DNA from: Gammaproteobacteria bacterium
GTDB lineage: Bacteria; Pseudomonadota; Gammaproteobacteria; Eutrophobiales; Eutrophobiaceae
Length of the DNA: 64,000 nt
Assembly: GCA_965116495.1 (NCBI GenBank)
Contig: OZ220696.1
Coordinates: 3,136,001 to 3,200,000, forward strand
Direction: 5' to 3'
Part shown: in pieces, positions 26,727-47,266 of the stretch
Layout of the letters: every line of letters starts with the position of its first letter
How positions within the stretch are numbered: position 1 is the stretch's first letter
Translations under genes and position numbers: made by a program
The notes under the pieces: model-generated
What the model was told of the DNA's origin: nothing
Databases searched by the model: none
Seen by the model: only the letters and a program-made list of their open reading frames with translations

Positions 26727-27418
26727 TGTGCTGTAACAAACTGCAAGATCTTATCCATCCAGGAATTTATGGAAGCGTAGTGTGAATCCTGAATTACGAG
26801 TATCTCCGACTCGGACTGCACATAACGGGAGTGCCGCAACTCGTCCCGGCAGTGATGGACAATGTCTTGCGCTGCGCGCGGCGTAGTTTCCAGGTGGAAC
26901 TGCAGACCGATTACCCGCCGGCCCAGTTGGAATGCCTGGTTCTCACAGGCACTGCTGCTAGCCAACCGTGCCGCGCCGGCAGGCAGGTCAAATGTATCAC
27001 CATGCCAGTGGAACACGAGTAACTCTTGCGGAAATGAGAATAAGTCTCCCGTGACGCACTCCGGTTCCGCCGTAATGGGGAACCAGCCAATTTCCTTTTC
27101 CATGTTCGGGTAGACAGCAGCGCCCATAGCACCGGCGATCAATTGCGCTCCGAGGCAGATGCCGACCACGGCCTTGTTCTGCTTTATGGCAGCGCGGACA
27201 AATTCCTTTTCCTGCCTGAGCCAGGGAAAATCCTGTTCATCGTTGACACTCATGGGACCGCCCATGATGACCAGCAAATCGATGTCAGCCGGATCCGGCA
27301 GCGCCGGTTCCTCGAAGAACTTCGTGACCGAGATAGCGGCGCGCTTTGATTGCAACCACGGTTCGATGCTGCCCAACCCCTCGAACGGGACATGTTGCAA
27401 GTAGTGGGCTTTTATCAT
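26723..27418 (-). CDS. Type 1 glutamine amidotransferase-like protein
   Basis: LQHVPFEG, MGGPMS, GICLGAQL, HWHGD, LQFHLE (Cys-His-Glu triad). Confidence 0.92.
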   Translation of the reverse strand: MIKAHYLQHVPFEGLGSIEPWLQSKRAAISVTKFFEEPALPDPADIDLLVIMGGPMSVNDEQDFPWLRQEKEFVRAAIKQNKAVVGICLGAQLIAGAMGAAVYPNMEKEIGWFPITAEPECVTGDLFSFPQELLVFHWHGDTFDLPAGAARLASSSACENQAFQLGRRVIGLQFHLETTPRAAQDIVHHCRDELRHSRYVQSESEILVIQDSHYASINSWMDKILQFVTAQ

Positions 27419-30400: not shown

Positions 30401-30789
30401 GTTAATCCGGCGCAGAAGGAATCGATAGTCTGGATCTTCATACGGGCAGGGTTCTGTATGAGTTGCCAGCCGAGTTCCTTGTCCCTGTCCAGGGCCCGGG
30501 CGGCCAGTTGCCGGCGGGTTTCCGTGTTCACGTTCCGGCTTTCGCTGTTACCGTGGGCGTCAGACCCGGCCAGATCCAGGGCTGAAATAATCCTGCCGCG
30601 CATTTCGGTAGCCGCCTTGCGGGTGAAGGTGATGGCAATGATTTCTTCCGGCGCTGCAACCACGGACAGCAGGCGCAGGTAGCGCCTGACCAGCAGTTCG
30701 GTCTTGCCGGAACCGGCGGGCGCCTGGACAATAAACGATTTATCCGGGGCTAATACCCGTTCCCGGGTTTCCTGGTCAACCGGATTCAT
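27415..30789 (-). CDS. addA: AddA-like UvrD helicase / PD-(D/E)XK nuclease
   Basis: QAPAGSGKT, TFTRKAA, LVDEFQD, VGDPMQSIYRFR, SIHKAKGLEF, LYVAATRA, C-terminal IDR..IVDYKT..QL..Y. Confidence 0.9.
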   Translation of the reverse strand: MNPVDQETRERVLAPDKSFIVQAPAGSGKTELLVRRYLRLLSVVAAPEEIIAITFTRKAATEMRGRIISALDLAGSDAHGNSESRNVNTETRRQLAARALDRDKELGWQLIQNPARMKIQTIDSFCAGLTQQMPVLSKLGGLPEIIEDAGDLYREAAANTLALLDNNMQDETQAQWSTAVGTLLAHLDNDLPRVRDMLVSMLQKRDQWLRRLLAGELPERSMLEQALGHIVEATLTDCLEALPQELIPEFTGCLHFATNNLADAPRIIDELPGPGNLQCWQFIVSLCLSGKGDWRKRLSIREGFPPGAAGKGMKHRFQSLLSRFGDSERLLELFLEIRGLPRTVYRDDEWRVIEALYRLLKLANAELYRLFAERNQVDFTGSSLAALQALGPEEDPTDLALYLDYRIRHILVDEFQDVSINQYELLKRMTGGWAMDDGHSLFLVGDPMQSIYRFRDAEVGLFLNIWFERRLGQTPIEPVSIEVNFRSDRSLVDWVNRAFPAALPAESDPVRGAVSFTPASAHHPHEGENRVQVHPILGRDDSGEAQRVLDQVIAIRNAAQSESIAILVRNRNHLQTITPLLTRAGLRFRAVEIERLENRPAIQDLLALTRALHHPADRVAWLALLRAPWCGLNLADLLALGADTRYDTIWHSLQDRQQRASLGADGQQRAARVCEVLEQALTRRGRMPLRRWVKGAWINLGGPATLESVTDLHDVDMFFDLLDELDAGGDLRSLNELVERVETLYAGADIQADDSLQVMSIHKAKGLEFDHVILPGLSRRSGSDAPQLLLWSENPYPSGSDLLLAPVRASHEDNSSIYNFINSLEKQKQRHEEGRLLYVAATRARKQLHLIGSVNTDKNGALSPPPGNTLLGQLWPAVEQEYQTYLANQTLTAEQESPPGEVHDARLRRLSADWQLPPPPAPRWITSSLPEPAQADPDTGDRGIEYQWAGRTIRHAGTVVHRCLQVMATAGIDQWSTEKIVAQRSCNRESLYSLGVPEAELDTACNWVEQALTGILADPRGRWLLAGHREQASEYALSGIYQGDVVNIVIDRTFIDEKGSRWIVDYKTSRHESGDIEQFLDLQQERYRGQLDKYAVIMSGLEDRPIRLGLYFPLLRGWREWAFE

Positions 30790-30832
30790 CGCAGTGCTTG
30801 CCGTCCGCCGGAACTGCGGTCTTTGTCCTTAA

Positions 30833-33587: not shown

Positions 33588-34367
33588 TTACTCGGAAAGT
33601 CTGCGAGCCAGGGACTTCAGTTTGGTTATCCGTTCGATGGAAGACGGGTGTGAACCTGAAAACCCGCCGGATAAGTGCCTGGTCTTCTTATATACCATCT
33701 CCTGCAGGCGCACGGCCCCGGCGGGATCGTAGCCGGCCTCAACCGCCCAGATTGCGCCCAGGTAGTCTGCCTCCCGTTCATTATCACGGCTGTATTTCGT
33801 ATTGCTGGCAGTCCTGATGTCCTGCCTGCCCCTGGTTTTATGATCCTCTCCGTGGTCCAGCTTCAGGTGTCCCAACTCATGGCCGATCAAGGCGGCGGCC
33901 ATGTGTACATCCAGGCCAAGCAGGTCAAGCATGGCAAAGTTAATCCCGACGATATTTATCTCAATAGCATTTTCTTCATCTATCGGCTTTGTGTCTTCGA
34001 TAGAATCCCCTTGCAGGCTCACTTCCTTGCCCTCGCCGGTTGCCTCACCGGTATTCTCTGCGCCTGCTGGTATCAGTTCAGCCATGCCTTTGGTGGCAAA
34101 AGCATTGGGCTGTTTTCCATCTGTAATGATGAGTTGTGACCTGAGTTCCGAGACCTCCTCAATCGCCTGGATTACCGAATAGAGATAGATAATCTGTTTA
34201 ACGTCAATACGCTTGAGGAGCCTGTTTTTATTATCGCGTAACTCAACGGTCTCCGCGTTTGTCCTGGCAAGGTCTTCAATCCTCCATGTGTAGCTGAACG
34301 GTGCGGCGAAACTATGGCTCATTGTCAAAAATGCCAGACATCCAATCATGATAGTCTGTTTGCTCAT
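33588..34367 (-). CDS. Exported M48-family metallopeptidase
   Basis: Signal peptide, PNAFA, GHELGH, YSRDNEREAD, SHPSSIERI. Confidence 0.88.
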   Translation of the reverse strand: MSKQTIMIGCLAFLTMSHSFAAPFSYTWRIEDLARTNAETVELRDNKNRLLKRIDVKQIIYLYSVIQAIEEVSELRSQLIITDGKQPNAFATKGMAELIPAGAENTGEATGEGKEVSLQGDSIEDTKPIDEENAIEINIVGINFAMLDLLGLDVHMAAALIGHELGHLKLDHGEDHKTRGRQDIRTASNTKYSRDNEREADYLGAIWAVEAGYDPAGAVRLQEMVYKKTRHLSGGFSGSHPSSIERITKLKSLARRLSE

Positions 34368-34672: not shown

Positions 34673-35596
34673 ATGAATTACTCGGATAGACCAAGCGGGA
34701 AGTTACGCTGTTTTATGGTATTTGCCGCGCTGGTATTTGTTACTGCTTGTAAGACGACACCCACCGTTCGTTCGTCAGGCCCCCCGGGCTCACCCGGCTC
34801 GCCGGGGTCGCCGGGCACGTCCGGACCATCCATACAGGTCGAAGCACCGGGCATGCCGGGAGTACCTGGAGTGCCCGGAGTACCGGGAGCGCCCGCGCCC
34901 GGCACAGGTAGCGCGCAGGGGGCACCGGAGCCAGGCGCGATCACCGTACCCGTTCAGCAACCCGGGTCAGCGTCCGGTAAAACCGGCGGCGTTCCTTCCA
35001 CGGCCCAATCCGGAAAGAATCAGAAGCCGGCCAGGTCTGGCGCCACTGCGGGAACCGGACGGGAAAAGACTGAAGATGAAATCCTGGCCGAAGCCTTGCA
35101 GGAACTCAATAAAAGGCGTGAACCGGAGCAACAGGGTGAAGGTGTCGCCGGGCAAATGCCCCAGGCGAGCGCGGCTGGCCCGGCAAGGACTGATGACGAG
35201 AAGAAACAGGCACTCGGTAATGAGCTGGAACAGGGTCTTGCGGAATTCGACCAACTGATGCTGAGTGAGCAGCAGGCTATCAATGAACAAGCCGACCAGG
35301 AAGGGTACGGCGGTTTCCTTGAAGGCGATGAATTTCCCGCAGAGGGCGACCCTGCACAGGGCACAGGGGAGGAGCCATTGCAAACGGCGATGGTCGATCC
35401 TGATCCTGTGTCCATCAAGGGCGAGGGGAATATCCCGACCAGAAGCCACAGCCGGATCCCTCCGGACCTGGCCGATGCCAAGGGAGACGATATCATCGCC
35501 CGCCAACTCCGCGAAGCCGCCATGAAAGAACAGGATCCCGAGTTAAGGGAAAAACTCTGGGATGAATATCGTAAATACAAGCGAGAGTTAAGATGA
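34673..35596 (+). CDS. Pro/Gly-rich putative lipoprotein with helical C-terminal domain
   Basis: Lipobox VTAC; (G-X-P)n runs; C-terminus DDIIARQLREAAMKEQDPELREKLWDEYRKYK; overlaps the next gene (ATGA). Confidence 0.75.
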   Translation: MNYSDRPSGKLRCFMVFAALVFVTACKTTPTVRSSGPPGSPGSPGSPGTSGPSIQVEAPGMPGVPGVPGVPGAPAPGTGSAQGAPEPGAITVPVQQPGSASGKTGGVPSTAQSGKNQKPARSGATAGTGREKTEDEILAEALQELNKRREPEQQGEGVAGQMPQASAAGPARTDDEKKQALGNELEQGLAEFDQLMLSEQQAINEQADQEGYGGFLEGDEFPAEGDPAQGTGEEPLQTAMVDPDPVSIKGEGNIPTRSHSRIPPDLADAKGDDIIARQLREAAMKEQDPELREKLWDEYRKYKRELR

Positions 35597-36786
35597 ATCC
35601 AAGTTATGTAAAACTGGTTACGGCAGTTGTTTCACTGTGTTTCGGCCTGGTCGGCTGTAACACGACCACGGTAAAGTCGGCCAGCTATGAGACGGTGGTG
35701 CTGGAATCGGAAGTTACACCGGAAGAATTATTGCTGGACGTGGGCGTTGGTATTTTCAATCCTGGAACTGACGCCATAAGCGTTGAGGAAGAAGGTGTGT
35801 TTCCTAAAATACGCGCAGCCGAGGCGCGTTTTATGCCGTACAAGCTGATGGAAACCCTGCAGCATACGGGTAACTGGGGCGTAGTGCGGGTGATTCCGGA
35901 CCGGTTGAGCGAAATGGATGTCTGGGTAGATGGTGAAATCCTGAAATCGGACGGTGAAAACCTCTGGTTGCAGGTAACGGTGGAAGACTCTACAGGGAAG
36001 CGTTGGTTCAGTAAAAAGTATACGGGATTGGCCGGCAAGTACTCGTATGATGGTACGACGGCAGGCCGCAGCGAACCGTTCCAGAAGGTTTATAACCAGG
36101 TCGCAAACGATATGCTGGCTTATCGCAACCAGTTCAATGCCGCGGAAATCAGGAATATAAGAACCGTTGCCGAACTGAAGTTCGCCAGGGACTTTTCTGC
36201 GGAAGTGTTCCATGATCACCTGGGCGTCAATGAAAAGGGGCGTTATTTCGTTAAACGCCTGCCCGCGGACGGAGACCCGGGTATGCAGCAGATTCGTCAG
36301 ATCCGGGAACGTGATTATATATTCGTCGACACGCTGCAGCAGTATTATACCTCGTTCGTCAACCAGATGGAGGATCCGTACCGGGAGTGGCGCGAGGCCT
36401 TCTACCTGGAAAGTCAGGCATTGAAGGAGGTCAAGTCCGAATCGAATGCCCGTCTGATCGGTGGCGCCCTGGCAGTACTGGCCGGGATACTGGCCCAGGG
36501 GGTTGACAGTCGTACTGCGCGGACAGCCGGCTGGGTAGGCATAGGCGCCGGCGCTGCCGCAATTCAAAGCGGCCTGCAGAAGCGTGAAGAAGCCAAAATT
36601 CACGTTGAAGCCCTGGAAGAAGTTTCAGCGTCACTCGATTCTGAGATTGAACCACACTCCATAGACCTGGAGGACCGCACGGTCACTCTTTCCGGTTCGG
36701 TAAACGAGCAGTACGGTCAATGGCGCCGCATATTGAAAGAAATTCATGCAACGGAAACGGGGTCAGCCACTGACACCGGCAAATGA
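35593..36786 (+). CDS. Putative lipoprotein with glycine-zipper hairpin
   Basis: Lipobox LVGC; C-terminal GGALAVLAGILAQG...AGWVGIGAGAAA hydrophobic Gly-rich pair; translationally coupled on both sides. Confidence 0.78.
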   Translation: MNPSYVKLVTAVVSLCFGLVGCNTTTVKSASYETVVLESEVTPEELLLDVGVGIFNPGTDAISVEEEGVFPKIRAAEARFMPYKLMETLQHTGNWGVVRVIPDRLSEMDVWVDGEILKSDGENLWLQVTVEDSTGKRWFSKKYTGLAGKYSYDGTTAGRSEPFQKVYNQVANDMLAYRNQFNAAEIRNIRTVAELKFARDFSAEVFHDHLGVNEKGRYFVKRLPADGDPGMQQIRQIRERDYIFVDTLQQYYTSFVNQMEDPYREWREAFYLESQALKEVKSESNARLIGGALAVLAGILAQGVDSRTARTAGWVGIGAGAAAIQSGLQKREEAKIHVEALEEVSASLDSEIEPHSIDLEDRTVTLSGSVNEQYGQWRRILKEIHATETGSATDTGK

Positions 36787-38348
36787 CAGGAAATAAAGAC
36801 TCCGGTTTTGTTTCCATCAAGCCGGCTGCGGTCGACCTGACTGCTGCTGCACCTGCGCCGGAACAAAAAAAGGGACGTTTCGGCAAACGGCCGTTGTTAT
36901 GGCTGGGAACGGGCGCCGCGTTGCTTATTGCGGCCGTCGTTTTTTTCCTGCTTCCCCATTGGGTCACCCATCCTGGCATCGGTCCCGGCGCGGCGAACAC
37001 CCGGACAGAGCCGGACAAGCCGGGTCAGGTACTACCCGGGGGGAATGCGTCGCAGACTGCAGGGGGTACGGCCGCTGCGGGGGATGCCCCGTGGAGAAAT
37101 GCGCAGCGATTCGCACAGCGCAAGCAGAGCCAGGAGATACTGGAACAGTTGCTTGATACGCAGGCAATCCTGGAAGAGAGGGGAGTGACCGTGTGGGGCA
37201 GGAAGGGTTACGAGCAGGCAATACAGCACGCCAGGTCGGGAGATGCTGAATACAGCCGGCAAAACTTCTCCATGGCCCATGACCATTACGCCCGGGCGTC
37301 TGATATCCTGACCGGGCTGCTGCAAGGTGTGGAGGAATTATTCAGCGATACCATGGAAACCGGCAATGCGGCACTGGCGGCAGGTGATGCCGTTGCGGCG
37401 AGGGAGTCATTCAGCATCGCCCTCGCCATTGATCCCATTGACCGGACTGCCCTGTCGGGAATGGAACGGGCCGGAACATTGACCGAGGTCATGGACCTGA
37501 TCGACAGGGGAGATATGATGTTGCGGGATGGAAAAGCCGAACAGGCCAGGGGGTTGTATCAACAGGCCCTGGAAATTGACGGGCACTCCGGGCGGGCCAG
37601 GCAACAACTGCAACTGGCCGAAAGCAGGATCAGTGAGAACGCATTCAGCGTTGCCATGTCCTCCGGCTTCCGCATGCTGGATGAGGGACGCTACTCACAG
37701 GCCGGGGAAGCGTTTTCCACGGCGCTCAGGATAAAGCCGGGGTCGCGTGATGCCCGTAGCGGGCTTGACCAGGCGAACCACCGTATAACCTCAGGAAAGA
37801 TAAATGCATTACTGAAACAGGCCAAAACCGCGGAGCAGAACGAGGATTGGCAGGGAGCCGTCTCCGCCTATGAAGCAGCACTGAAGCTGGACAACAACCT
37901 GGGAAATGCCCGGGAAGGTCAGCGCCTGGCCACCCTGCGTAAAGAGATACACGATAGACTTGGGCAGGTGCTGTCCCGGCCGGACAGGCTGTTTGACCGG
38001 GGCGCGTTTGATGAGATCGTCAGTTTCCGTGACAAACTCCAGGCGCTGTCCGAGCCCGGTCCTGTCCTGGCCGGCCAGTTAGCCAGGCTCGACCGTTTAC
38101 TGAACCTGGCCGATACACCCGTGCCGGTGCAGTTCAGGTCCGACAATCAGACTCGGGTCACCCTCTACAAGGTCGGTGAACTGGGTTATTTCACCAGTAA
38201 AAACCTGTCACTGCGCCCCGGCCATTACGTGGTGGTCGGACACCGTGACGGGTATCGCGACGTGCGTGTTGAATTTTTTGTTGACCCCGACAAAGTCATG
38301 GAGCCTGTCACGGTCAGCAGTGATGAAAAGATAGCCCTGGGACAATAA
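36783..38348 (+). CDS. Membrane-anchored TPR-repeat protein with C-terminal PEGA-like domain
   Basis: One N-terminal TM helix; TPR units (ALAIDP, YQQALEID, ALRIKP, YEAALKLD); LRPGHYVVVGHRDGY PEGA-like motif. Confidence 0.8.
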   Translation: MTGNKDSGFVSIKPAAVDLTAAAPAPEQKKGRFGKRPLLWLGTGAALLIAAVVFFLLPHWVTHPGIGPGAANTRTEPDKPGQVLPGGNASQTAGGTAAAGDAPWRNAQRFAQRKQSQEILEQLLDTQAILEERGVTVWGRKGYEQAIQHARSGDAEYSRQNFSMAHDHYARASDILTGLLQGVEELFSDTMETGNAALAAGDAVAARESFSIALAIDPIDRTALSGMERAGTLTEVMDLIDRGDMMLRDGKAEQARGLYQQALEIDGHSGRARQQLQLAESRISENAFSVAMSSGFRMLDEGRYSQAGEAFSTALRIKPGSRDARSGLDQANHRITSGKINALLKQAKTAEQNEDWQGAVSAYEAALKLDNNLGNAREGQRLATLRKEIHDRLGQVLSRPDRLFDRGAFDEIVSFRDKLQALSEPGPVLAGQLARLDRLLNLADTPVPVQFRSDNQTRVTLYKVGELGYFTSKNLSLRPGHYVVVGHRDGYRDVRVEFFVDPDKVMEPVTVSSDEKIALGQ

Positions 38349-38378
38349 CCCGGATAATGGCGAGCGAACTGGTGGGAT

Positions 38379-40424
38379 ATGCGGGCTGATCGTATTGAAG
38401 CGGCGAAGTTTGAACCGCTGACGTCAAAAAAATCAACCCGGCCTGTTGCATTCAATGCGCGGCTTTGCCTGGTTATTGCCCTGCTCGCGGTGGGCGCATT
38501 CTGTGCCTGGTTCATGCTGACGGCCAAAGCGGTCTATATTGAAACCGAGCCGTTGAATGCGGATGTCGATATACCGGTCGCGCTCAAGATTAAGCTGGCC
38601 AACCGCTATCTTATCCGCCCCGGTACTTATCGGCTTAACCTGTCGGCGCAGGGCTATACCCCGGTTCGGGAAACACTTGGCGTCAGCGAAGAGGCGTCCC
38701 AGCATTATATTTACCGGCTGGAGAAACTGCCCGGACACCTGCGGGTAGACAGCGGTCCGGTAACCGGCGCGCAGGTGCTTGTCGACGGCAATTCCAGGGG
38801 AGAAACACCTGTTACCCTCAGGGACCTCGCGCCCGGTGAACACCTTGTGGAGATCGTGGCAGAGCGATATTTCCCTTATCGCGAAAGTATCGAGGTGGAA
38901 GGACTCGACCGCGAACAGGCAATCAGCGCTGAGCTGAGGCCCGCGTGGGCGGAAATCAGTTTTACATCAATCCCTGCGGACGCGCAGGTGTTCAGCGCTG
39001 ATGAAATCCTTGGCAGGACGCCGTTGACGGCAGAACTGCTTGAGGGCAGGCATGACATCAGGATCAAGGCAGCCGGCTACAAGGTCTGGCAGGATGCGAT
39101 TGCCGTGGTCGCGGGCAAGTCACAGTCCATAGCCGATATCAAACTGGAAGCGGCGGATGCAAGCTTGTTCCTGGTCTCCCAGCCTGCCCGGGCCAATGCT
39201 ACCGTCAACGGCAATTACCTGGGATTGACGCCGCTGGAAGTACCCCTGACACCGGGAGAGACCACCGTTGTGCGGTTGTTCAAACAGGGTTACAAACCGG
39301 CTGCCAGGTCATTGACGGCGAAATCAGGCGAACAGAAGAGACTGTCCGTTACCCTGGAACCTGAACTGGTCCCCGTAGTTATCAGGGTGGAACCTGATGA
39401 CGCATCCGTGTACGTTGACGGCGCGCTGGTCGGGACCGCTGACCGCACTATCCGGTTATCGACCAGCAAGCACAGGATAGAGGTCCGCAAGCAGGGATAC
39501 GTGGATTACAAGACCACCCTGACGCCTCTTGTCGGGGTTGAACATGAACTGAACGTACAGCTGAAGACCCTCAGGCAGGCGAAACTGGAAACTGTCAAAC
39601 CGGTTATCAAGGCGCCGTCAGGCCAGGTCCTGAAACTGTTTTACCCGGGTACGTTTACCATGGGAGCGTCGCGCCGGGAACCGGGACGCAGGGCCAATGA
39701 GACCATGCATGATGTAGAGCTCACGCGGCCCTTTTACCTGGGGTTGAAGGAAGTGACAAACCAGGAGTACAGGTTGTTTGATAAGGGGTTTTCGTCCGGT
39801 AACGTGCGCGGCAACAGTCTTAACGGAGACAACCAGCCGGTGGCCGGCATCACCTGGGAACAGGCGGCAAGCTATTGCAACTGGTTGAGCAAAGAGGCCT
39901 CGCTGACGCCGTTCTATATTGAAAAAGAAGGCAGGGTTACAGGGTTTGACAAAACAGCCGACGGTTACCGTTTGCCGACAGAGGCGGAATGGGCCTGGGC
40001 GGCACGTGTGACCGGTACGGGTGAGATACTCAAGTTCCCCTGGGGCGCGCAACTGCCGCCCGCGAAAAACAGCGGAAATTTTGCCGACCGCAAGGCGGCG
40101 GCCCTGTTCGGCAGGATCATCGGCAACTATGATGATGGTTATGTCGTCAGTGCGCCCGTGGGCAGCTTCACGCCCAACGGCAAGGGGTTGTTCGACCTGG
40201 GCGGCAACGTTGCAGAATGGGTCAACGACTTCTACAACATTGTGGTCAGCGCCGGTAAAAAAGCCGAGGTAGACCCTATGGGGCCCGCAAGCGGGGAGTT
40301 CCACGTTATCCGCGGGTCAAGCTGGGCTCACGGCGCCATTACCGAACTGCGCCTGTCGTTCAGGGACTACGGGGGTAAATCCAGAGAAGATGTAGGTTTC
40401 AGGATTGCCCGCTATGCGTACTGA
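38379..40424 (+). CDS. Membrane-anchored multi-PEGA protein with FGE-sulfatase (SUMF1/GldK-like) domain
   Basis: TM helix, about five PEGA repeats (PGTY..QGY, PGEH, GRH..AGY, KQGY), then FTMG, EVTNQEY, RLPTEAEW, GLFDLGGNVAEW, RGSSW, VGFRIA; no catalytic Cys pair. Confidence 0.88.
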   Translation: MRADRIEAAKFEPLTSKKSTRPVAFNARLCLVIALLAVGAFCAWFMLTAKAVYIETEPLNADVDIPVALKIKLANRYLIRPGTYRLNLSAQGYTPVRETLGVSEEASQHYIYRLEKLPGHLRVDSGPVTGAQVLVDGNSRGETPVTLRDLAPGEHLVEIVAERYFPYRESIEVEGLDREQAISAELRPAWAEISFTSIPADAQVFSADEILGRTPLTAELLEGRHDIRIKAAGYKVWQDAIAVVAGKSQSIADIKLEAADASLFLVSQPARANATVNGNYLGLTPLEVPLTPGETTVVRLFKQGYKPAARSLTAKSGEQKRLSVTLEPELVPVVIRVEPDDASVYVDGALVGTADRTIRLSTSKHRIEVRKQGYVDYKTTLTPLVGVEHELNVQLKTLRQAKLETVKPVIKAPSGQVLKLFYPGTFTMGASRREPGRRANETMHDVELTRPFYLGLKEVTNQEYRLFDKGFSSGNVRGNSLNGDNQPVAGITWEQAASYCNWLSKEASLTPFYIEKEGRVTGFDKTADGYRLPTEAEWAWAARVTGTGEILKFPWGAQLPPAKNSGNFADRKAAALFGRIIGNYDDGYVVSAPVGSFTPNGKGLFDLGGNVAEWVNDFYNIVVSAGKKAEVDPMGPASGEFHVIRGSSWAHGAITELRLSFRDYGGKSREDVGFRIARYAY

Positions 40425-40444
40425 GAAGCGCGGAGACAAAGCAC

Positions 40445-40469
40445 GGGGACGGAATTCAATTCCGTCCCC
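40445..40469. repeat. Family B hairpin GGGGACGGAATT-C-AATTCCGTCCCC
   Basis: Perfect 12-bp arms; near copy GGGGACAGATTTCAATTCTGTCCCC at 43575-43599. Confidence 0.82.
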
Positions 40470-40610
40470 TTCCAAAAGCTCCGTTTGTCGCAAGCCGGAA
40501 TCCGGTTCCGCCCCTTTTGCATGGCAGTGATACAATGCAAAACGTAGAATAATGAGATAAACCGCTATGGGCCATAAACTTAAGTACACGATAAAAACGT
40601 CGTTGGAATT

Positions 40611-40928
40611 ATGGGACAGATGATTTCGGACGTTACTAAGCACTCCATTGAGTTGGAGCGGCTTTGCATCCTTCACCATGTGAAGCGGCTCGACCTGTTT
40701 GGTTCAGCCGTAACCGGTCAGTACAGCCCGGAGGAAAGCGATCTGGACTTCGTGGTGGAGTTCCAACCACTGCCTGCTGGCGGGTATGCCGATACTTATT
40801 TCGGTTTACTGGAGCATTTGGAACGGCTGTTTGGATGCCCTGTAGACCTGATAGTCGGGTCGGCTATCAAGAATCCCTATTTTCTGCAATCGGTTGAGAA
40901 AACGAGAACTCCAGTCTATGAGACTTGA
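40611..40928 (+). CDS. Minimal nucleotidyltransferase (MNT) antitoxin
   Basis: LDLFGSAV...SDLDFVV (GS-x10-DxD), YFGL, VDL, IKNPYF. Confidence 0.88.
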   Translation: MGQMISDVTKHSIELERLCILHHVKRLDLFGSAVTGQYSPEESDLDFVVEFQPLPAGGYADTYFGLLEHLERLFGCPVDLIVGSAIKNPYFLQSVEKTRTPVYET

Positions 40929-41082
40929 GACCCGAAAATACTTATACGATATTCAGCGCGCCGTTGAATTGCTGGGGGAATTTACTGCCGGAAAGACGCT
41001 CGTAGATTACGAGGCCGACGCCATGCTACGCGCAGCAGTTGAACGCGAGTTCGACCAATCTTTAGAAAGGTGTTCAGTCTGA
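40918..41082 (+). pseudogene. Truncated HEPN/DUF86 toxin
   Basis: KYLYDI..A...F..GKT..DY..D.MLRAAVER matches the DUF86 N-terminus; ends after 54 aa without the R-x4-H motif. Confidence 0.75.
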
Positions 41083-41294
41083 TGTTGAGAGTGATTTTTT
41101 TTCTCGCGATGTTTGCTGCTGTTACGATAAAAGCACAAGAGACTCCTGTTACGACGGAGCCCGAAGCCGGGCAGGTTAAAGGGACAAGGGAAAGACCGGT
41201 AGAACAGGATGCGGTTGAAGACGCTCCAGACATCATTGAATCGACCGAGGAGTTGTCCGAAGACTATCCCGCAGATTTTCCAGTAGATATATAG
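41082..41294 (+). CDS. Small exported acidic protein ending in DFPVDI
   Basis: Signal peptide (..IKA-Q), acidic low-complexity body, 7 bp upstream of the MotA/TolQ gene. Confidence 0.65.
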   Translation: MLRVIFFLAMFAAVTIKAQETPVTTEPEAGQVKGTRERPVEQDAVEDAPDIIESTEELSEDYPADFPVDI

Positions 41295-41301
41295 CCCGAT
41301 C

Positions 41302-42099
41302 ATGAAATTTAACCAGACAACAGATTTTTTCTACCAGTTGTTTACGCTGATTGCCGCAATTATTATCGTTCATGCGCTGTATATTGCGGTGATCCGGCCG
41401 AATGCGGAAGCCATCCTGGAGGAACAGCGTATCCAGCAGCAGGCCGGTGAAAACTACGAAGTGAAGCGTTCCGTTTTTATTGTCATTAAGGATTTTGAAC
41501 AGGAAGCCTGTTTTATTCTGGCCCTCTGGGTCGTAGCCATTATCGGCCTGAAAGCCAGGATAGCGCTTTCCGAAAGACGCCTGCTGAGCCGTTCCCTGCT
41601 GGAGGTGGCCGCCGGCGCCACCATACTGCCCGAGGATTCCCGGCAATATATCAGGCCGCTACAGGCCTTGGCGGAGGATGAACGGGAATCCCTGTTGCCG
41701 CGTGCGCTACAGGCGGCATTGCAGCGGTTTGGTTCTACCGCGGACATACAGGATGTCTCATCCGCTATCCGGGAAATCTGCGAGACGGAATCCGATAGGC
41801 TGGATTCCGAACTTTCGATGATCAGGTATGTCATCTGGGCCATTCCTTCTATCGGCTTTATCGGCACCGTGCGCGGTATCGGCGAAGCCCTCGGTCAGGC
41901 CCATCGGGCGGTAGAAGGCGATATCGTGGGGGTGACCGTCAGTCTGGGTGTCGCCTTCAACTCCACCTTCATCGCACTGATCATCAGCATTTTCATCATG
42001 TTCCTGATGCACCAGTTACAGCTTATGCAGGAAAGACTGGTGCTGGATACACAGCATTACTGCGACGTAAACCTGTTGCGGCACTTGCAGGTCAGGTAA
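41302..42099 (+). CDS. MotA/TolQ/ExbB proton-channel family protein
   Basis: Four TM helices; IPSIGFIGTVRGI and LGVAFNSTFIAL signatures. Confidence 0.92.
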   Translation: MKFNQTTDFFYQLFTLIAAIIIVHALYIAVIRPNAEAILEEQRIQQQAGENYEVKRSVFIVIKDFEQEACFILALWVVAIIGLKARIALSERRLLSRSLLEVAAGATILPEDSRQYIRPLQALAEDERESLLPRALQAALQRFGSTADIQDVSSAIREICETESDRLDSELSMIRYVIWAIPSIGFIGTVRGIGEALGQAHRAVEGDIVGVTVSLGVAFNSTFIALIISIFIMFLMHQLQLMQERLVLDTQHYCDVNLLRHLQVR

Positions 42100-42150
42100 A
42101 TGATGGTGTGCAATACAGGTTGGGGCAGCCGGCCATCGCCAGGAGCATGA

Positions 42151-43467
42151 ATGACTGATGCTGTCATAGAACTGAACGACTGCGAGGTAAGCGTAATCCG
42201 GTCCGGAAACGTCGTGGTGAGCAGTCCCGGCATTGCCGTGCTCAAGGAAGACCGGATCGAACTGGGACAGGGGGCCTTGCAAGCCACACATATCGACCCG
42301 AGGAATACCTTCAGCCGGTTCTGGAGCAATCTCAACCAGGATAACTTCAAGCACCGGACGAAACTGGCCAGGCATAATGCCGACCTGGCTTATGCCCACT
42401 TGTTATCCTTGCACGAGATGGCGGACGGCGTGGATAGGGTAGTACTCGCCGTGCCCGGCAGTTATACCACAGAGCAATTGGCGCTGTTGCTGGGCTTGAT
42501 GGACGCCTCCCCCTTTACTTCAGCAGGCCTGGTCGATAGCGCTATCGCGGCGGCGGCAGCGACGGCCGGCGCCGGGAGCTATAACCACCTGGATGTCCAC
42601 CTGCATAACACTGTCATTACCTCACTGGAAGTCTCCGGCACAGTGATGCGCACGGCAGTCAAAGTAATCAATGATGTCGGTCTGTTGGATATTCAAGACA
42701 AATGCGTGAGCCACGTTGCTGACCTGTTTATTCAACAATCCCGGTTTGATCCGCTGCATCACGCGGTAACGGAACAGGCCCTTTGCAACCGTATGGCGCA
42801 ATGCCTGCATGAACTGGCAGGTGAAGCTGACACGATGGTCGATATCGAGTTTGAGAATGCCCATTACCAGGCCCGGGTGAATCGGGAGCGCCTGGTGGAA
42901 GCGCTACGACCGTTGTACAGTAAAATCAGCGCTGCCGTCGACGCCAACCAGCTTGCGCTGGTGCACAAACGTCTTGCCGGTCTGCCCGCGTTCACCGACC
43001 ACCTGTCTGAGGCAAGCAGGCACATCGAGGTCCTGGATGAACACGCCGTGTTCGCCGGCTGCATGGGCTATATGCAGGAAGACAAAGCTGCGGATGAAGA
43101 GGTTTACTTCATCACGCAACTCAAGGCCGCTGCGGAACCCGCAATAAGTTACGCAACTACAGCAAGGCTGGAACAAAAGCCTGAAGTGGGGGCGACCCAC
43201 GTCCTGGTGGATGCTGAGGCCCACCCACTCGGGCAGGCTCCGCTGTACCTGTCCGCACAGGGAGGTTTAACGCAGTCCGGGAGTCAGGACACTCTTTGTT
43301 CCCTGACACTTAAGGAATCAGTTGCAACTCTTGCTCTGTCAGGCGACGCCGAAATTGTTCTCGTCAACGGCCGGGCCGTGAACGGCAACGTCGAACTCAA
43401 GCCGGGCGACGTAATCGGTTTTGCCGGCTCAACACACAAATTCAGCCTTATCAGGGTCCTGGAATGA
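42151..43467 (+). CDS. Cytoplasmic protein with degenerate Hsp70/actin-like fold and C-terminal FHA-like domain
   Basis: SSPGIAVL...LGQGA, VVLAVPGSYTTEQ...GLVDSAIAAA...HLDV parallels the DnaK nucleotide-binding-domain layout; C-terminal VLVNGRAV..ELKPGDVIGF. Confidence 0.65.
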   Translation: MTDAVIELNDCEVSVIRSGNVVVSSPGIAVLKEDRIELGQGALQATHIDPRNTFSRFWSNLNQDNFKHRTKLARHNADLAYAHLLSLHEMADGVDRVVLAVPGSYTTEQLALLLGLMDASPFTSAGLVDSAIAAAAATAGAGSYNHLDVHLHNTVITSLEVSGTVMRTAVKVINDVGLLDIQDKCVSHVADLFIQQSRFDPLHHAVTEQALCNRMAQCLHELAGEADTMVDIEFENAHYQARVNRERLVEALRPLYSKISAAVDANQLALVHKRLAGLPAFTDHLSEASRHIEVLDEHAVFAGCMGYMQEDKAADEEVYFITQLKAAAEPAISYATTARLEQKPEVGATHVLVDAEAHPLGQAPLYLSAQGGLTQSGSQDTLCSLTLKESVATLALSGDAEIVLVNGRAVNGNVELKPGDVIGFAGSTHKFSLIRVLE

Positions 43468-43496
43468 CAGGCGCCGGCAGACGTCGCAGGGGTTAC

Positions 43497-43599
43497 CGGG
43501 GACAGGTTTCAAACATGCCCCTGCATGTTGTAAGCAGGGGTCTGTCCTCTGTCACGGGGCTGTCAGATTTCAGCGGGGACAGATTTCAATTCTGTCCCC
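43497..43599. repeat. Family B repeat cluster (GGGGACAG...CTGTCC)
   Basis: GGGGACAGGTTT...GGGGTCTGTCC unit (43498-43553) plus hairpin at 43575-43599. Confidence 0.8.
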
Positions 43600-43632
43600 T
43601 GTTACAGCGGTCGACTTTCCTCCGGATGAGAA

Positions 43633-44718
43633 ATGCGGACTAAAAGACTGCTTACACCCTTCAGCCTGTCGTTCCTGGACATCATGTCCTGCGGCTTCGG
43701 CTCGGTGGTACTGTTGTTTCTCATCATCAAGCATAACGTTGATACCAACGTTCCCGTCCCCGTCGATACCCGCGACGAGACTGCCGAGGTCATGCTGCTG
43801 GAGGAGGAAATCCTGGAAGGTAAAAAAAACCTCGCCAGGACCCGCAACACCATCTCGGACATCGATGAGCAACTGGTGGTGGCGCAAGGTATGGCCCGGC
43901 GCATTATGGAAAAAATCGAGGAAACCCGGTCCCTGGCGGAGCAACTGTCGGAAACGACCGATTCTGTGGAACTGGACCGGCTGAAGCTCAATATCAAGAA
44001 GCTGGAGGAGCAGAAAAAGCAGTTACAGGAGGAGATAAAAGAGACAGGAGATGATGTCCGGCGCCTGGTCGGAGAAGGGAACCGCGAGTACCTAACCGGA
44101 CTCAGGCTGGGTGGCAAGCGTATTTTAATTCTGCTGGATGTCTCCGGCAGCATGCTGGACGATACTATCGTCAATATCATCCGCATCCGTAACATGCGCG
44201 ATGGGATCAAACGCAACGCGCCTAAATGGGTGCAGACCTTGCGGATGGTGGATTGGCTGACGGCCGGGTTTCCCAGGGACAGCCAATACCAGATCTACGT
44301 GTTCAACACCGAAACGCGCTCGGTGTTGCCGGGGCTGGCCGGGAAATGGCTGGGCGTCAGCGACAAGGCGCAATTGAATTCGATCATTGAAGCGCTAGGA
44401 AAGATCGTGCCGGAGGGCGGCACCAACCTGGAACGGGCCTTTGCCGCCATCGGCAAACTGCGGCCCCGGCCCGACAATGTGTACTTGATTACGGACGGTC
44501 TGCCCACTCAGGGCTCCAGGACGATCCGGGGCCCTTACATTACCGGTAAACAGCGGCTGAACCTGTTTGCCAGGGCAATCAATCAACTTCCCGCAAACGT
44601 TCCGGTTAACGTAATCCTGGCGCCGCTGGAAGGAGACCCGGAGGCGGCCTACGCCTACTGGCGCCTGGCCATGAATACCGACGGTTCGTTCCTGGTGCCC
44701 AGCGAGGACTGGCCATGA
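43633..44718 (+). CDS. ExbD/MotB-like TM helix + coiled coil + VWA domain protein 1
   Basis: FSLSFLDIMSCGFGSVVLLFLII; coiled coil; MIDAS LLDVSGSM, GGTN, ITDG. Confidence 0.85.
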   Translation: MRTKRLLTPFSLSFLDIMSCGFGSVVLLFLIIKHNVDTNVPVPVDTRDETAEVMLLEEEILEGKKNLARTRNTISDIDEQLVVAQGMARRIMEKIEETRSLAEQLSETTDSVELDRLKLNIKKLEEQKKQLQEEIKETGDDVRRLVGEGNREYLTGLRLGGKRILILLDVSGSMLDDTIVNIIRIRNMRDGIKRNAPKWVQTLRMVDWLTAGFPRDSQYQIYVFNTETRSVLPGLAGKWLGVSDKAQLNSIIEALGKIVPEGGTNLERAFAAIGKLRPRPDNVYLITDGLPTQGSRTIRGPYITGKQRLNLFARAINQLPANVPVNVILAPLEGDPEAAYAYWRLAMNTDGSFLVPSEDWP

Positions 44719-45710
44719 GAAAAAAACGGCGGGAAAACGAGGCGTTCAGTATCTCATTCCTGGACGTCATCACCTGCGGTTTCGGCGCAATCATACTGTT
44801 GCTCATGATCGCCAAAACCGGGGACAGTCCCATACTGGAGACCGCGGTCGAATCCATGCACGGTATAGTGCGGGAATTGCAGGTCCAGTTATTTGAAATT
44901 CGCGGTGAGGCCAAAATCCTGGACCGGGAACTGGACGCCAGGCATGAACAGCGGTCCGAATGGGAGGAGCGGGTTGCCCGCCTCGAGGCGGAACTGGCAA
45001 CGGAGGAAATACGCTATAACAACGTGCGTGACGACTCTGCCGTAGGCATCATCATCAAGGACGAATTTGAGTTGGCCCTGCAGCAACTGACGGAAGAAAT
45101 GAAGCGCCTGTTGTCGCAAAGAGACCGCGTACGCACCGACCTGGTAGGCGGCATACCGGTCGATAGCGAATATGTCATTTTTGTCCTCGACACCTCGGGC
45201 AGCATGGTCAACTACCATTGGGAAAACATGATCAACCAGTTGATTACGACCCTTGACGTCTATCCCCGCCTTAAGGGCATACAGATCATGAGTGACATGG
45301 GCGAATACCTGTTTTCCCAGTACCGGCGTACCTGGATTCCCGATACCGAAGGCAGGCGCAAGGTCATCATCAGGACTTTGCGCAGTTGGAGAACCTTCAG
45401 CAACAGCAGCCCGGTGGAAGGCATCACCAAGGCGATCCGCAGCTTTTATGACCCCGGAAAGAAGATCAGCATCTATGTGTACGGAGACGAGTTTACCGGA
45501 CCTTCAATCAGGCAGGTCCTGGATCAGGTGGAGCGCATCAACCCGAAAGACAAGGACGGCCAAACCATGGTGCGCATCCATGCGGTCGGCTTTCCGGTTC
45601 CTTCCAACGCCGGTGAACATTTCCTGATAACCAATAAACGTTATGCTTCACTCATGCGCCAACTGACCCACAAGAACGGCGGCGCGTACGTCGGCCTGAA
45701 TGAACAGTGA
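44715..45710 (+). CDS. ExbD/MotB-like TM helix + coiled coil + VWA domain protein 2
   Basis: FSISFLDVITCGFGAIILLLMI; coiled coil; MIDAS VLDTSGSM, YGDE, IHAVGF; ATGA overlap with its paralog. Confidence 0.85.
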   Translation: MRKKRRENEAFSISFLDVITCGFGAIILLLMIAKTGDSPILETAVESMHGIVRELQVQLFEIRGEAKILDRELDARHEQRSEWEERVARLEAELATEEIRYNNVRDDSAVGIIIKDEFELALQQLTEEMKRLLSQRDRVRTDLVGGIPVDSEYVIFVLDTSGSMVNYHWENMINQLITTLDVYPRLKGIQIMSDMGEYLFSQYRRTWIPDTEGRRKVIIRTLRSWRTFSNSSPVEGITKAIRSFYDPGKKISIYVYGDEFTGPSIRQVLDQVERINPKDKDGQTMVRIHAVGFPVPSNAGEHFLITNKRYASLMRQLTHKNGGAYVGLNEQ

Positions 45711-45761
45711 ACGCCTCACTACGAAGTTTGTGGACTACCACCGAGTTAAGGACAATAATAT

Positions 45762-46427
45762 ATGTATTCGAGATACGAAGCGCAGGATAGGGCCAGAATG
45801 ACTCACAGACTCATTTATTCAGCCGGCTTGTTGTTGATCCTGACTGCCTGCGAGCAGTCCATGTCCCTCAGGGTGGAGAGTGAAATACCCATCCCGGTGA
45901 TCGACCGGATGCCGGTAAAAATGGGGGTAATCTTCCAGGACGAATTGCGCAACTACGTCTCTGAGGAAAATTCCGACGAACGGCCCAACTGGAAGATCGA
46001 GAGCGGTTCTTCCCACGTCGCCTTGTTCCAGCAATTACTTTCCTCCATGTTCGAGGAGACAAAAGAAGTCGCCGGTGCCGGCGCCGATACTACAGTCGAT
46101 GCGGTATTGGCGCCCACCGTCGCCGAAATGCAATTTGCCCTGCCCGCGGAAACCAAAACGGATTTTTATGAAGCCTGGGTTAAATATAATATGGAGCTGT
46201 TTAACCAGGACGGCAGTCGAATAGCAAACTGGTCGGTAACAGGGTACGGAAAATCCTCCACCGAATTCATGAAAAGCCGTGATAAGGGACTCAACGCGGC
46301 GGTAAACCAGGCCCTGCGGGATGCAGGCGCCAAATTTGCGCTCGGTTTCTCCAGGATAGAGGAGATCAGCGTCTGGGTGGAGCAGAAGAACAAAATATCC
46401 GCAGATTACGCAGATGAACGCAGGTAA
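45762..46427 (+). CDS. Putative lipoprotein
   Basis: Lipobox LTAC (start at 45762 or 45798); the last 9 codons come from a palindromic repeat. Confidence 0.78.
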   Translation: MYSRYEAQDRARMTHRLIYSAGLLLILTACEQSMSLRVESEIPIPVIDRMPVKMGVIFQDELRNYVSEENSDERPNWKIESGSSHVALFQQLLSSMFEETKEVAGAGADTTVDAVLAPTVAEMQFALPAETKTDFYEAWVKYNMELFNQDGSRIANWSVTGYGKSSTEFMKSRDKGLNAAVNQALRDAGAKFALGFSRIEEISVWVEQKNKISADYADERR

Positions 46428-46544
46428 GTTATGATATTTATTCGGAGGTACAGCATAAAAAATCATTACTGCCATCAGCGGTCACCTCAATCACCTTTGA
46501 AACAATAAGTTTTTATCTGCGTTCATCTGCGTAATCTGCAGATA
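46396..46544. repeat. Inverted repeat element, family D (ATCCGCAGATTACGCAGATGAACGCAG)
   Basis: 32-bp arms at 46396-46427 and 46513-46544, two mismatches, with an AT-rich spacer. Confidence 0.85.
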
Positions 46545-46597
46545 AAACATCTATAATCTTTGGATGTAATATAAGCCTTGGTGAGTAGCGTGTGATC

Positions 46598-47266
46598 ATG
46601 AAAATCCTGTTAGCTATCACGTTGTTAATCGGTTTGGGCCTGTTTGCCGGGTGCAAGAGCACCACTGTGATTGACGAGTACAGGGAGACTCCCGAGGCAG
46701 GTATCAACCAGGGTGAGGCCATAGTGGTGCTGGGGCGGCGCCACAGTTCCGGCTACGAGACAGAGGATGATTTCATAAGTTGTGTGGGTAGGTCATTGGG
46801 ACAGGGACAGTCCGAGATCAACGTGATTCCGGAAAAGGACTTCGTAGACAGCATGTATCCGTACTTTGAAACCAGTACCGCGCCCATGGATGTAAGAAAC
46901 CTGGGTTCGCTGGCAAAAATTCCTGCTATCGCCACAAAATTCAATGATTTCAACCTGCGCTATTTCGTCTGGATCGACGGTGCCACGGAAAGGACGGATT
47001 CCTCGGGCTCGGTGTCCTGTGCCGTAGGACCGGGTGGCGGCGGCTGTTTCGGGTTTGCCTACTGGAAGGATGAAGCAAATTATGAGGCCAGCATCTGGGA
47101 TTTCAAGCAACTGGCCCTGTCCGGCAAGATCAACGCCGAAACCAAGGGAACCTCATACATGCCGGCGATAATCATCCCGGTCCCCATGCTGGCGCGGGTC
47201 CAGGAAAATGCCTGCAAATCCCTGGCCAACCAGATCAGGACTTTCTTCTCGCATCAACCCGGCTGA
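46598..47266 (+). CDS. Putative lipoprotein with Cys-bounded glycine hairpin
   Basis: Lipobox FAGC; SCAVGPGGGGCFG; C-terminal PAIIIPVP. Confidence 0.8.
   Translation: MKILLAITLLIGLGLFAGCKSTTVIDEYRETPEAGINQGEAIVVLGRRHSSGYETEDDFISCVGRSLGQGQSEINVIPEKDFVDSMYPYFETSTAPMDVRNLGSLAKIPAIATKFNDFNLRYFVWIDGATERTDSSGSVSCAVGPGGGGCFGFAYWKDEANYEASIWDFKQLALSGKINAETKGTSYMPAIIIPVPMLARVQENACKSLANQIRTFFSHQPG

What the first reader, a model, noticed from the sequence alone, without database searches (positions are those of the whole stretch)
34673..47266. Candidate undescribed ion-motive-force-driven trans-envelope machine
Seen: 11 co-directional genes, several translationally coupled: Pro/Gly lipoprotein, Gly-zipper lipoprotein, TM-TPR-PEGA, TM-PEGA-FGE, small exported peptide, MotA/TolQ, Hsp70/actin-like-FHA, two TM(Asp)-coiled-coil-VWA proteins and two more lipoproteins. 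There is no TonB, TolA/TolB/Pal, OmpA-type MotB domain, flagellar gene or Zorya nuclease here. Established: MotA/ExbB/TolQ/AglR form 5:2 ion-driven motors; Myxococcus gliding uses AglR with two partner subunits plus TPR, FHA, VWA and MreB components; Bacteroidota GldK/J are non-catalytic FGE-fold proteins. Inference: a distinct motor-based complex with cytoplasmic, inner-membrane, periplasmic and outer-membrane parts, possibly for motility/adhesion, secretion or envelope remodelling. I know of no characterised system with this composition.
Basis: partly seen in the sequence, partly recalled or inferred. Interest (0 to 1): 0.82.

Follow-up and report, generated by a model that had tools for sequence, protein, structure and literature searches.

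The report
Marine envelope machine with rotary motor
A real gene block, kept in the same order across many marine bacteria, likely builds an ion-driven membrane motor whose two sticky-headed arms are predicted to act on an outer-membrane ring; the motor core was predicted by computer in 2025, while I found no description of the other parts and no test of what the machine does.

Summary
The block is real. All 11 genes are present, but an unrelated MntA/HepT-type insertion sits between genes D and E. Order is conserved in marine Gammaproteobacteria (37 of 400 sampled genomes carry gene I). An eight-gene core (A-B-C-D-E-F-H-I) recurs everywhere; G, J, K, a TPR–TonB-C protein and an M48 protease are accessory. 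F is a MotA/TolQ-type channel. H and I carry the pore aspartate, a coiled coil and vWA heads with the metal-site motif. This core belongs to the 'TPH-vWA' family predicted in PMC12204202 (29% identical to the Idiomarina proteins); that paper's text names no PEGA or FGE partner. Added here: B has a FlgT/PelC/CsgG-type domain plus a glycine-zipper hairpin; D's FGE domain lacks catalytic cysteines; G has an Hsp70 fold without the glycine ATP loops; peptide E, ending P-x-D/N-I, lies before F in 171 of 172 loci. Best reading: an ion-driven motor acting on an outer-membrane lipoprotein ring for envelope upkeep or cargo handling (about 45%). Function is untested. This scan found the same system before on other genomes.

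The parts
33588..34367 (-). M48 metalloprotease; likely accessory member (co-directional right after K in many relatives, divergent upstream of A here)
   Evidence: PF01435 E 2e-12; M48 cluster in 38 of 108 loci
34673..35596 (+). A (core): exported/lipoprotein, long low-complexity linker, conserved helical C-terminus with a DD..ARQ.REAA motif
   Evidence: lipobox Cys26; conservation; lipobox pattern in 33 of 49 homologues
35593..36786 (+). B (core): lipoprotein with FlgT/PelC/CsgG/TolB-N-type domain plus long helical hairpin tipped by a glycine-zipper hydrophobic segment (res. 286-329); predicted outer-membrane ring
   Evidence: AF2 pLDDT 76.8; Foldseek; VIA Z 10.6 FlgT, 9.8 PelC, 9.4 CsgG; ring formation is inferred
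36783..38348 (+). C (core): N-terminal membrane helix, TPR/helical repeats, C-terminal PEGA-like beta domain; predicted periplasmic strut
   Evidence: TPR_2 E 4e-15; hydropathy; PEGA-like by pattern only
38379..40424 (+). D (core): membrane helix, five PEGA domains, FGE-fold domain without catalytic cysteines; predicted periplasm-spanning scaffold
   Evidence: no Cys in the active-site segment in 69 of 69
40611..40928 (+). Not part of the machine: minimal nucleotidyltransferase (MntA-like), local insertion
   Evidence: no hit in 80 related loci
40918..41082 (+). Not part of the machine: 54-codon HepT-like stub that stops where E begins
   Evidence: translation; label inferred
41070..41294 (+). 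E (core): signal peptide, acidic linker, conserved C-terminal F-P-x-D-I tail; mature form only about 15-17 residues in the reduced clade
   Evidence: 102 of 102 and 69 of 70 loci against 43 of 5000 random windows
41302..42099 (+). F (core): MotA/TolQ/ExbB-family channel subunit, predicted pentamer
   Evidence: PF01618 over cut-off; pore-threonine motifs in 141 and 142 of 144
42151..43467 (+). G (accessory): cytoplasmic Hsp70/actin-fold domain lacking the glycine phosphate loops, plus FHA-like domain
   Evidence: AF2 pLDDT 94; Foldseek E 8e-18 to DnaK
43633..44718 (+). H (core): aspartate-bearing trans-pore helix, coiled coil, vWA with DxSxS metal-site motif
44715..45710 (+). I (core): paralogue of H, same architecture; predicted heterodimer partner
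45762..46427 (+). J (accessory): lipoprotein, fold not determined
   Evidence: lipobox; no family or PDB hit
46592..47266 (+). K (accessory): lipoprotein with five invariant cysteines, likely CsgG/GNA1162-like fold
   Evidence: ESM Atlas nearest named clusters CsgG (19% of members), DUF6340, CT253, GNA1162 at 0.92-0.93 (a lead only)

Best explanation
The block likely encodes an ion-driven 5:2 membrane motor whose two vWA-headed arms are predicted to pull or turn on an outer-membrane lipoprotein ring, most likely for envelope upkeep or for handling protein cargo at the outer membrane. Shown here: the gene set and order, the channel family of F, the pore aspartate and metal-site motif of H and I, the predicted folds of B and G, the loss of catalytic residues in D. 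From established knowledge of MotAB, ExbBD, TolQR and AglRQS: five F subunits would surround the two aspartate helices, and ion flow would turn one against the other. Inferred: the roughly 100-residue coiled coils carry the vWA heads across the periplasm; C and D, anchored in the inner membrane, act as struts; B forms the ring, with its glycine-zipper hairpin in the outer membrane; and the small exported peptide E is the handle or latch, its carboxylate tail completing a vWA metal site as integrin ligands do. In the larger form, a soluble TPR–TonB-C protein, lipoproteins J and K, an M48 protease and cytoplasmic G would add cargo recognition and control.
For: Core order A-B-C-D-E-F-H-I conserved. 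F pore motifs in 141 and 142 of 144; DxSxSM in 101 of 101 H and 100 of 101 I; N-terminal F-x-D in 97 and 96 of 101. Same family as the AF3-modelled pentamer-plus-vWA-pair of PMC12204202. B matches FlgT, PelC, CsgG, PqiC-type lipoprotein domains, which I recall as outer-membrane ring formers. D is an FGE fold without catalytic Cys; best NCBIfam hit GldK, far below cut-off. E tail in 171 of 172 loci. BepA-like M48 protease beside the block in 38 of 108 loci. TolB is present in 44 of 44 carriers, so it does not replace Tol-Pal. Kept in 1.6-2.0 Mb genomes; 6 of 44 carriers and this genome lack both FlgH and PilM. Not in the iron- or carbon-limitation lists of A. macleodii.
Against: No phenotype, localisation or binding data exist for any part. 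Only about 9% of sampled Gammaproteobacteria carry it, so it is not general housekeeping. B's ring is inferred from a fold that monomeric proteins (TolB-N, LptE) share, with Z 9-11 only. No cargo gene, beta-barrel or ATPase is conserved in the block. Some relatives end E in N rather than D. The M48 protease is absent next to the reduced form, which is still a complete unit.
Confidence: 0.45

Rival explanations
1. A surface-motility or adhesion machine like Myxococcus Agl-Glt or Bacteroidota Gld: the motor moves adhesins along the cell surface.
For: Heterodimeric plug as in AglRQS, plus TPR, FHA, TonB-C, actin-fold and vWA parts and a small unstructured exported protein (GltF) occur in Agl-Glt (PMC11761067 passages). 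D resembles GldK/PorK in fold. PMC12204202 suggests gliding for its other vWA family. This genome has neither FlgH nor PilM.
Against: The vWA heads are tied to the inner membrane, not displayed on the surface; no beta-barrel or adhesin gene recurs in the block; G, the only cytoplasmic link, is absent from 67 of 152 loci. Carriers include flagellated genomes (18 of 44). The listing showed no paper on gliding in Microbulbifer.
Confidence: 0.17
2. A TonB-independent or TonB-parallel energiser for import through outer-membrane transporters, the vWA heads or the soluble TPR–TonB-C protein doing TonB's job.
For: A TonB-C-like domain protein precedes A in 44 of 67 G-type loci and is found in 10 of 44 carriers and 0 of 36 non-carriers. 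Carriers are mostly marine, where uptake matters.
Against: No TonB-dependent receptor recurs among the neighbours. The TonB-C scores are under the curated cut-off. The reduced form has no such protein (0 of 44 loci). This genome has its own ExbBD and TonB loci. The A. macleodii genes are not in the iron- or carbon-limitation lists.
Confidence: 0.15
3. A dedicated export channel for a polymer or a protein, with B as a Wza/CsgG/PelC-like pore, E as a CsgF-like pore peptide and the motor pulling cargo out.
For: B and probably K have CsgG/PelC-type domains; B adds a hydrophobic hairpin that could line a pore; E is a tiny exported peptide.
Against: No synthase, flippase or secreted substrate recurs next to the block. 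This reading overlaps with the best explanation and differs only in a specific cargo.
Confidence: 0.15
4. An anti-phage sensor-motor like Zorya.
For: Zorya also uses a 5:2 motor (recalled); an MntA/HepT-type pair is inserted in this locus.
Against: No PADLOC Zorya match; no nuclease or helicase effector recurs; one copy in most carriers; no match in 72,556 plasmids or 50,697 phages; the insertion is local.
Confidence: 0.05

Closest known systems
TolQ-like motor with a heterologous pair of trans-pore-helix vWA proteins ('TPH-vWA', second family), predicted in Mol Biol Evol 2025;42:msaf138 (PMC12204202)
   Same: TolQ-like gene, two different vWA proteins with the pore aspartate, threonine ring, no tolR/exbD; I and H are 29% identical to Idiomarina proteins (E 8e-51, 2e-57), the genus that seeded the paper's search.
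   Different: The paper's text treats only the three-gene core and reports no function. It has 0 hits for PEGA or FGE, as has its text supplement for PEGA or SUMF1. Its Fig. 4c gene maps could not be seen and may draw some neighbours.
Myxococcus Agl-Glt gliding machine (AglR5-AglQ-AglS with GltG/J, GltF, CglB)
   Same: MotA-family pentamer with a heterodimeric plug; TPR, FHA, TonB-C, actin-fold and vWA domains; a small unstructured exported bridging protein (PMC11761067, predicted model).
   Different: There the plugs are ExbD/TolR-like, force goes through side-bound GltG, and the vWA is a surface adhesin on beta-barrels. Here the vWAs are the plug heads and no beta-barrel or membrane-anchored TonB is in the block.
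Bacteroidota type IX secretion/gliding motor GldLM with the GldK/N ring
   Same: Works-like analogy (architecture recalled): a long periplasmic dimer driven by a 5:2 motor, and an FGE-fold structural protein (D hits GldK E 1e-33 and PorK structures E 2e-27).
   Different: F is MotA/ExbB-type, not GldL; D is membrane-anchored with PEGA repeats, scores 117 bits against a cut-off of 350, and matches true FGE slightly better than PorK.
Tol-Pal and Ton (TolQRA, ExbBD-TonB)
   Same: Channel family and pore threonine/aspartate chemistry; B shares the TolB-N fold.
   Different: No TolR/ExbD, no TolA or membrane-anchored TonB, no Pal; carriers keep their own TolB (44 of 44).
Zorya ZorAB
   Same: MotA-like channel with an aspartate plug (recalled).
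   Different: No OmpA-type plug domain, no long channel tail, no effectors, no PADLOC hit.

Membership tests
TPH-vWA motors (PMC12204202) | tolQ homologue tightly linked to vWA genes | tested here: met
   F PF01618; H and I each in 74 of 80 F loci, misses mostly at contig ends
TPH-vWA motors (PMC12204202) | no syntenic tolR/exbD/motB | tested here: met
   none in the window; none among the recurrent neighbours listed
TPH-vWA motors (PMC12204202) | heterologous pair, each with a conserved trans-pore aspartate and no SHLS motif | tested here: met
   D16 in H and D17 in I; no S-x-x-x-H in either helix
TPH-vWA motors (PMC12204202) | conserved threonine ring in the pentamer | tested here: met
   GTVRG and FN.T motifs in 141 and 142 of 144; sequence only
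TPH-vWA motors (PMC12204202) | homology to the Idiomarina seed proteins | tested here: met
   I vs I. loihiensis AAV83014.1 E 8e-51; H vs an Idiomarina protein E 2e-57; the paper's exact accession was not visible
TPH-vWA motors (PMC12204202) | both helices insert into a pentamer (5:2 complex) | not tested
Agl-Glt gliding machine | ExbD/TolR-like AglQ and AglS plugs | tested here: not met
   plugs end in coiled coil plus vWA
Agl-Glt gliding machine | membrane-anchored TonB-C transducers (GltG/J) and outer-membrane beta-barrels (GltA/B/H) | tested here: not met
   none in the block; the linked TonB-C-like protein has a signal peptide and TPRs and is accessory
Agl-Glt gliding machine | drives gliding | not testable with these tools
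   needs mutants and imaging
Type IX secretion/Gld | GldL/GldM motor and GldK/N above family cut-off | tested here: not met
   F is MotA_ExbB; D 117 bits vs 350
Tol-Pal | TolR, TolA, TolB, Pal in the locus | tested here: not met
   absent from the block; a separate full tol-pal locus is at G000:C1:2889048-2894098
Zorya | ZorA/ZorB models, OmpA-type domain, effector genes | tested here: not met
   no PADLOC Zorya hit; no OmpA domain
Formylglycine-generating enzyme (for D) | two catalytic cysteines and substrate-binding insertion | tested here: not met
   both missing in the alignment to human FGE; 0 of 69 with Cys there
Hsp70/actin ATPases (for G) | fold | tested here: met
   Foldseek E 8e-18, TM about 0.6
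Hsp70/actin ATPases (for G) | glycine-containing phosphate-1 and phosphate-2 loops | tested here: not met
   columns read E-x-N-D and D-x-x-L-H in 70 rows; loop assignment is by position in the strands and by recalled motifs

The most novel reading that the evidence does not exclude
This is a further class of rotary-motor machine in Proteobacteria, the functional counterpart of the Bacteroidota GldLM-GldKN system: a direct-drive axle with integrin-like heads that grips a 15-residue exported peptide and drives export or surface translocation of cargo through an alpha-helical lipoprotein pore, in abundant marine bacteria not known to have such a machine.
Probability: 0.3. Interest if true: 0.88.

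Novelty: new variant of a known kind. Interest (0 to 1): 0.62.

Why it matters
Only a few jobs are known for 5:2 ion motors (flagella, Ton, Tol, gliding, type IX secretion, Zorya). Here the axle itself ends in two different metal-dependent gripping domains, and the surrounding parts form a fixed eight-gene unit in about one in eleven sampled Gammaproteobacteria, including streamlined genomes. The parts list, the universal peptide E, and locus tags in a genetically tractable strain (A. macleodii ATCC 27126, MASE_17095-17130) turn a computer prediction into direct experiments. It would also correct annotation: D is labelled a 'SUMF1/EgtB/PvdO nonheme iron enzyme' and F an ExbB.

Tried and rejected
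Complex prediction (E against D-FGE, H-vWA and I-vWA) was not available, so E's partner is open. J: no Pfam/NCBIfam hit, no PDB profile hit, profile comparisons with K and B matched only the lipoprotein N-terminus, and the Atlas did not answer; fold unknown. K: no PDB profile hit. Expression: one metatranscriptome holds 0.06 of the words; its 16 contigs at 90-99% identity touch MNT, E/F, G, I and J, which is a relative and does not show transcription. Promoter scan: 12 sites against 7.8 +/- 2.9 by chance; one 10/12 site 120 nt before A; not evidence. Co-variation of G, J/K, the TonB-C protein and long E is strong, but G-less loci form one clade (SH-aLRT 99, quick tree, careful search unfinished), so it counts as one event, not co-evolution. 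Kaur et al. eLife 2020 (passages): no MotA/TolQ/ExbB mention, not this system. Vesicle proteome supplement (PMC10117737; most abundant proteins only) and PMC11325263 supplement: no PEGA/vWA rows. PMC11260094 (passages): not relevant. No paper holds the five locus tags searched. A link to flagella or type IV pili was rejected. That D binds E as FGE binds its substrate was set aside: the substrate insertion is missing.
Full report
OBSERVATION. The 11 ORFs are in the sequence as described: A 34673-35596, B 35593-36786, C 36783-38348, D 38379-40424, E 41070-41294, F 41302-42099, G 42151-43467, H 43633-44718, I 44715-45710, J 45762-46427, K 46592-47266. A/B, B/C and H/I overlap by four bases. The genome (4.34 Mb, 99.5% complete) has one copy of the block, a separate full tol-pal locus, two ExbBD loci (one with TonB), and no FlgH or PilM.

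CONSERVATION. In these 80: G 77, D 76, H 74, I 74, C 66, J 64, K 62, B 61, A 60, with most misses at contig ends. Of 108 loci (those 80 plus 28 taken from sampled genomes), 76 had enough flank: 46 read ABCDFGHIJK, 11 ABCDFHI, 9 ABCDFGHI, 3 BCDFHI and 7 other or partial patterns (E scored separately). Gene I was found in 37 of 400 sampled Gammaproteobacteria (includes this genome and one unpublished genome, G432; one genome unscored) and in 12 of 401 genomes of the phylum, 8 of them in one family of another class. At least 7999 proteins at 90% clustering match I (candidate limit). Cultured carriers of the reduced form include Alteromonas, Idiomarina, Rheinheimera and Methylophaga (cluster names). 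No match in plasmids (gene I) or phages (gene F).

TWO FORMS. The core is A-B-C-D-E-F-H-I. Among 152 loci with D, F, H and I, 85 have G and 67 do not. J or K occur in 70 of 78 G-type and 0 of 47 G-less loci with enough flank; a further gene Z occurs directly upstream of A in 44 of 67 and 0 of 44; the long acidic form of E in 83 of 85 and 7 of 67 (many near-identical Alteromonas rows). In a tree of 59 dereplicated F proteins the G-less loci form one clade (SH-aLRT 99, quick tree), so this is one event. Z has a signal peptide, TPRs and a TonB-C-like end (TIGR01352 or PRK10819 hits at E 4.5e-5 to 0.044 in 7 of 8 tested, all under cut-off; its profile also finds this genome's real TonB). This genome's likely Z orthologue lies at C1:1876016-1877359 beside alanine dehydrogenase and phbB, the same neighbours that precede Z-A in L011 and L015, which points to a split by rearrangement. 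Z was found in 10 of 44 carriers (one a TPR-only partial) and 0 of 36 non-carriers, K in 12 of 44 and 0 of 36; all 10 Z-positive genomes are K-positive. In G767, Z, J and K sit together about 34 kb from the core. An M48 protease cluster, often BepA-like and right after K, occurs in 38 of 108 loci.

PARTS. F: MotA_ExbB over cut-off, with the two pore-threonine motifs in 141 and 142 of 144 homologues and an extra D-x-E-Q motif in 140. H and I: one membrane helix starting F-L-D, about 100 residues of coiled coil, then vWA with DxSxSM in 101 of 101 and 100 of 101. B: model pLDDT 76.8; N-terminal domain matches DUF330/PqiC, FlgT, PelC, CsgG and TolB-N (VIA Z 10.6, 9.8, 9.5, 9.4, 9.3, tied), followed by a long hairpin whose tip (289-329) is hydrophobic, glycine-rich and unresolved in the monomer. 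D: five PEGA domains and an FGE fold that lacks both catalytic cysteines and the substrate insertion (0 of 69). G: Hsp70 nucleotide-binding fold at pLDDT 94 with a weak FHA match (best E 0.004); the phosphate loops read E-x-N-D and D-x-x-L-H, without glycines, so it is likely not an ATPase, though the conserved polar residues may bind a ligand. K: nearest named Atlas clusters are CsgG, DUF6340, CT253 and GNA1162 (a lead). J: fold undetermined. E: an ORF ending P-x-[DN]-[IVM]-stop lies before F in 102 of 102 loci having D and F and 69 of 70 metagenome loci, against 43 of 5000 random 700-base windows. In the reduced clade it is a signal peptide plus about 15-17 residues.

MECHANISM. By the rules of MotAB, ExbBD, TolQR and AglRQS, F5 would enclose the two aspartate helices and ion flow would turn the pair against the ring. 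With no TolA or TonB beside it, the coiled coils would carry force straight to the vWA heads, as PMC12204202 proposes. I infer that the heads, D's FGE domain and C's end all reach the outer part of the periplasm, where lipoproteins A and B lie; that B forms a ring with its hairpin in the outer membrane; and that E's carboxylate tail is the handle gripped by a vWA metal site. None of these contacts was modelled or tested. For the job done, I favour envelope upkeep or cargo handling at the outer membrane (0.45): the block coexists with TolB in 44 of 44 carriers, is independent of flagella (18 of 44) and pili (38 of 44 strong PilM hits), persists in 1.6-2.0 Mb genomes, neighbours a BepA-like protease, and has no conserved receptor, synthase or effector gene. 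In A. macleodii ATCC 27126, E is MASE_17115 and accessions run in order to HMG-CoA reductase, MASE_17135, which places A-I at MASE_17095-17130; none of these tags is in the iron- or carbon-limitation lists of PMC7190382 (supplement file 2 rows; six picture files not searchable; genes without an old tag would be missed). Against this reading: it is in only about 9% of sampled genomes, and there is no phenotype. Rivals: gliding or adhesion (0.17), Ton-like import (0.15), dedicated export (0.15), defence (0.05).

WHAT IS KNOWN. Earlier notes of this scan (10 findings in at least 10 genomes, 8 shown) pointed to PMC12204202. I read its abstract, the matching passages, part 3 of 8 of the text, and searched its one text supplement. 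It describes a second family of membrane-tethered vWA proteins in heterologous pairs beside tolQ homologues, with the pore aspartate and threonine ring, modelled by AF3, function unknown. Every sequence-level feature is met here, and the window's I and H match Idiomarina proteins at E 8e-51 and 2e-57. The text names none of A-E, G, J, K or Z for this family; the gene maps of Fig. 4c were not visible. Nine literature searches (open-licence papers and bioRxiv only) found no account of the whole block or any experiment. The closest working analogues are Agl-Glt (PMC11761067, passages: heterodimeric plug; GltF, a small unstructured protein predicted to add a strand to a TonB-C domain, is a fair model for the long form of E with Z) and GldLM-GldKN (recalled); membership of both fails on tested features.

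VERDICT. Real and conserved. The motor core is a member of a family predicted in 2025; the full eight- to thirteen-gene machine is a new variant of the 5:2 motor-driven envelope systems, not described in the papers I could search, and untested. Interest 0.62.

Noticed in passing
G000:C1:18984-20955 (- strand; L006): A second unusual MotA-like unit: a 247-aa channel-like protein (PF01618, 37 bits), a 197-aa protein with an N-terminal aspartate helix, and a 172-aa membrane-anchored protein; no ExbD, TonB or flagellar genes beside it.
   Followed up: no
window 40611-41082: MntA-like nucleotidyltransferase plus truncated HepT-like stub inserted between D and E; matches PADLOC candidate PDC-S09 at E 1e-30. 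A relative's RNA-library contig covers part of it.
   Followed up: partly
G000:C1:1876016-1877359 and 3630310-3631608: Two secreted TPR proteins with a TonB-C-like end; the first is the likely detached member Z of this system.
   Followed up: yes
L119-L121 (G443, G661, G733; 1.7-2.0 Mb genomes): A fast-evolving variant: C is half-length with a signal-peptide-like start, G has lost its FHA part, J and K are absent.
   Followed up: partly
G550 and G669: G550 holds both forms of gene I; G669, of the window's own family, has the reduced form closest to a Methylophaga-type locus, which hints at transfer or old duplication.
   Followed up: no
window about 43514-43552 and 46420-46550: Short intergenic stretches with many loose contig ends and raised depth, probably multi-copy repeats.
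   Followed up: no
G000:C1:3633543-3636471: Tandem array of at least four near-identical 186-199-aa genes.
   Followed up: no
window 27415-33586 (- strand): AddA/AddB-like helicase-nuclease pair (label from sequence motifs, recalled), linked to the block only in the two closest relatives.
   Followed up: no
L020, L023, L117, L208-L215: A 190-200-aa secreted TPR-only relative of Z lies convergent, just after the M48 gene.
   Followed up: no
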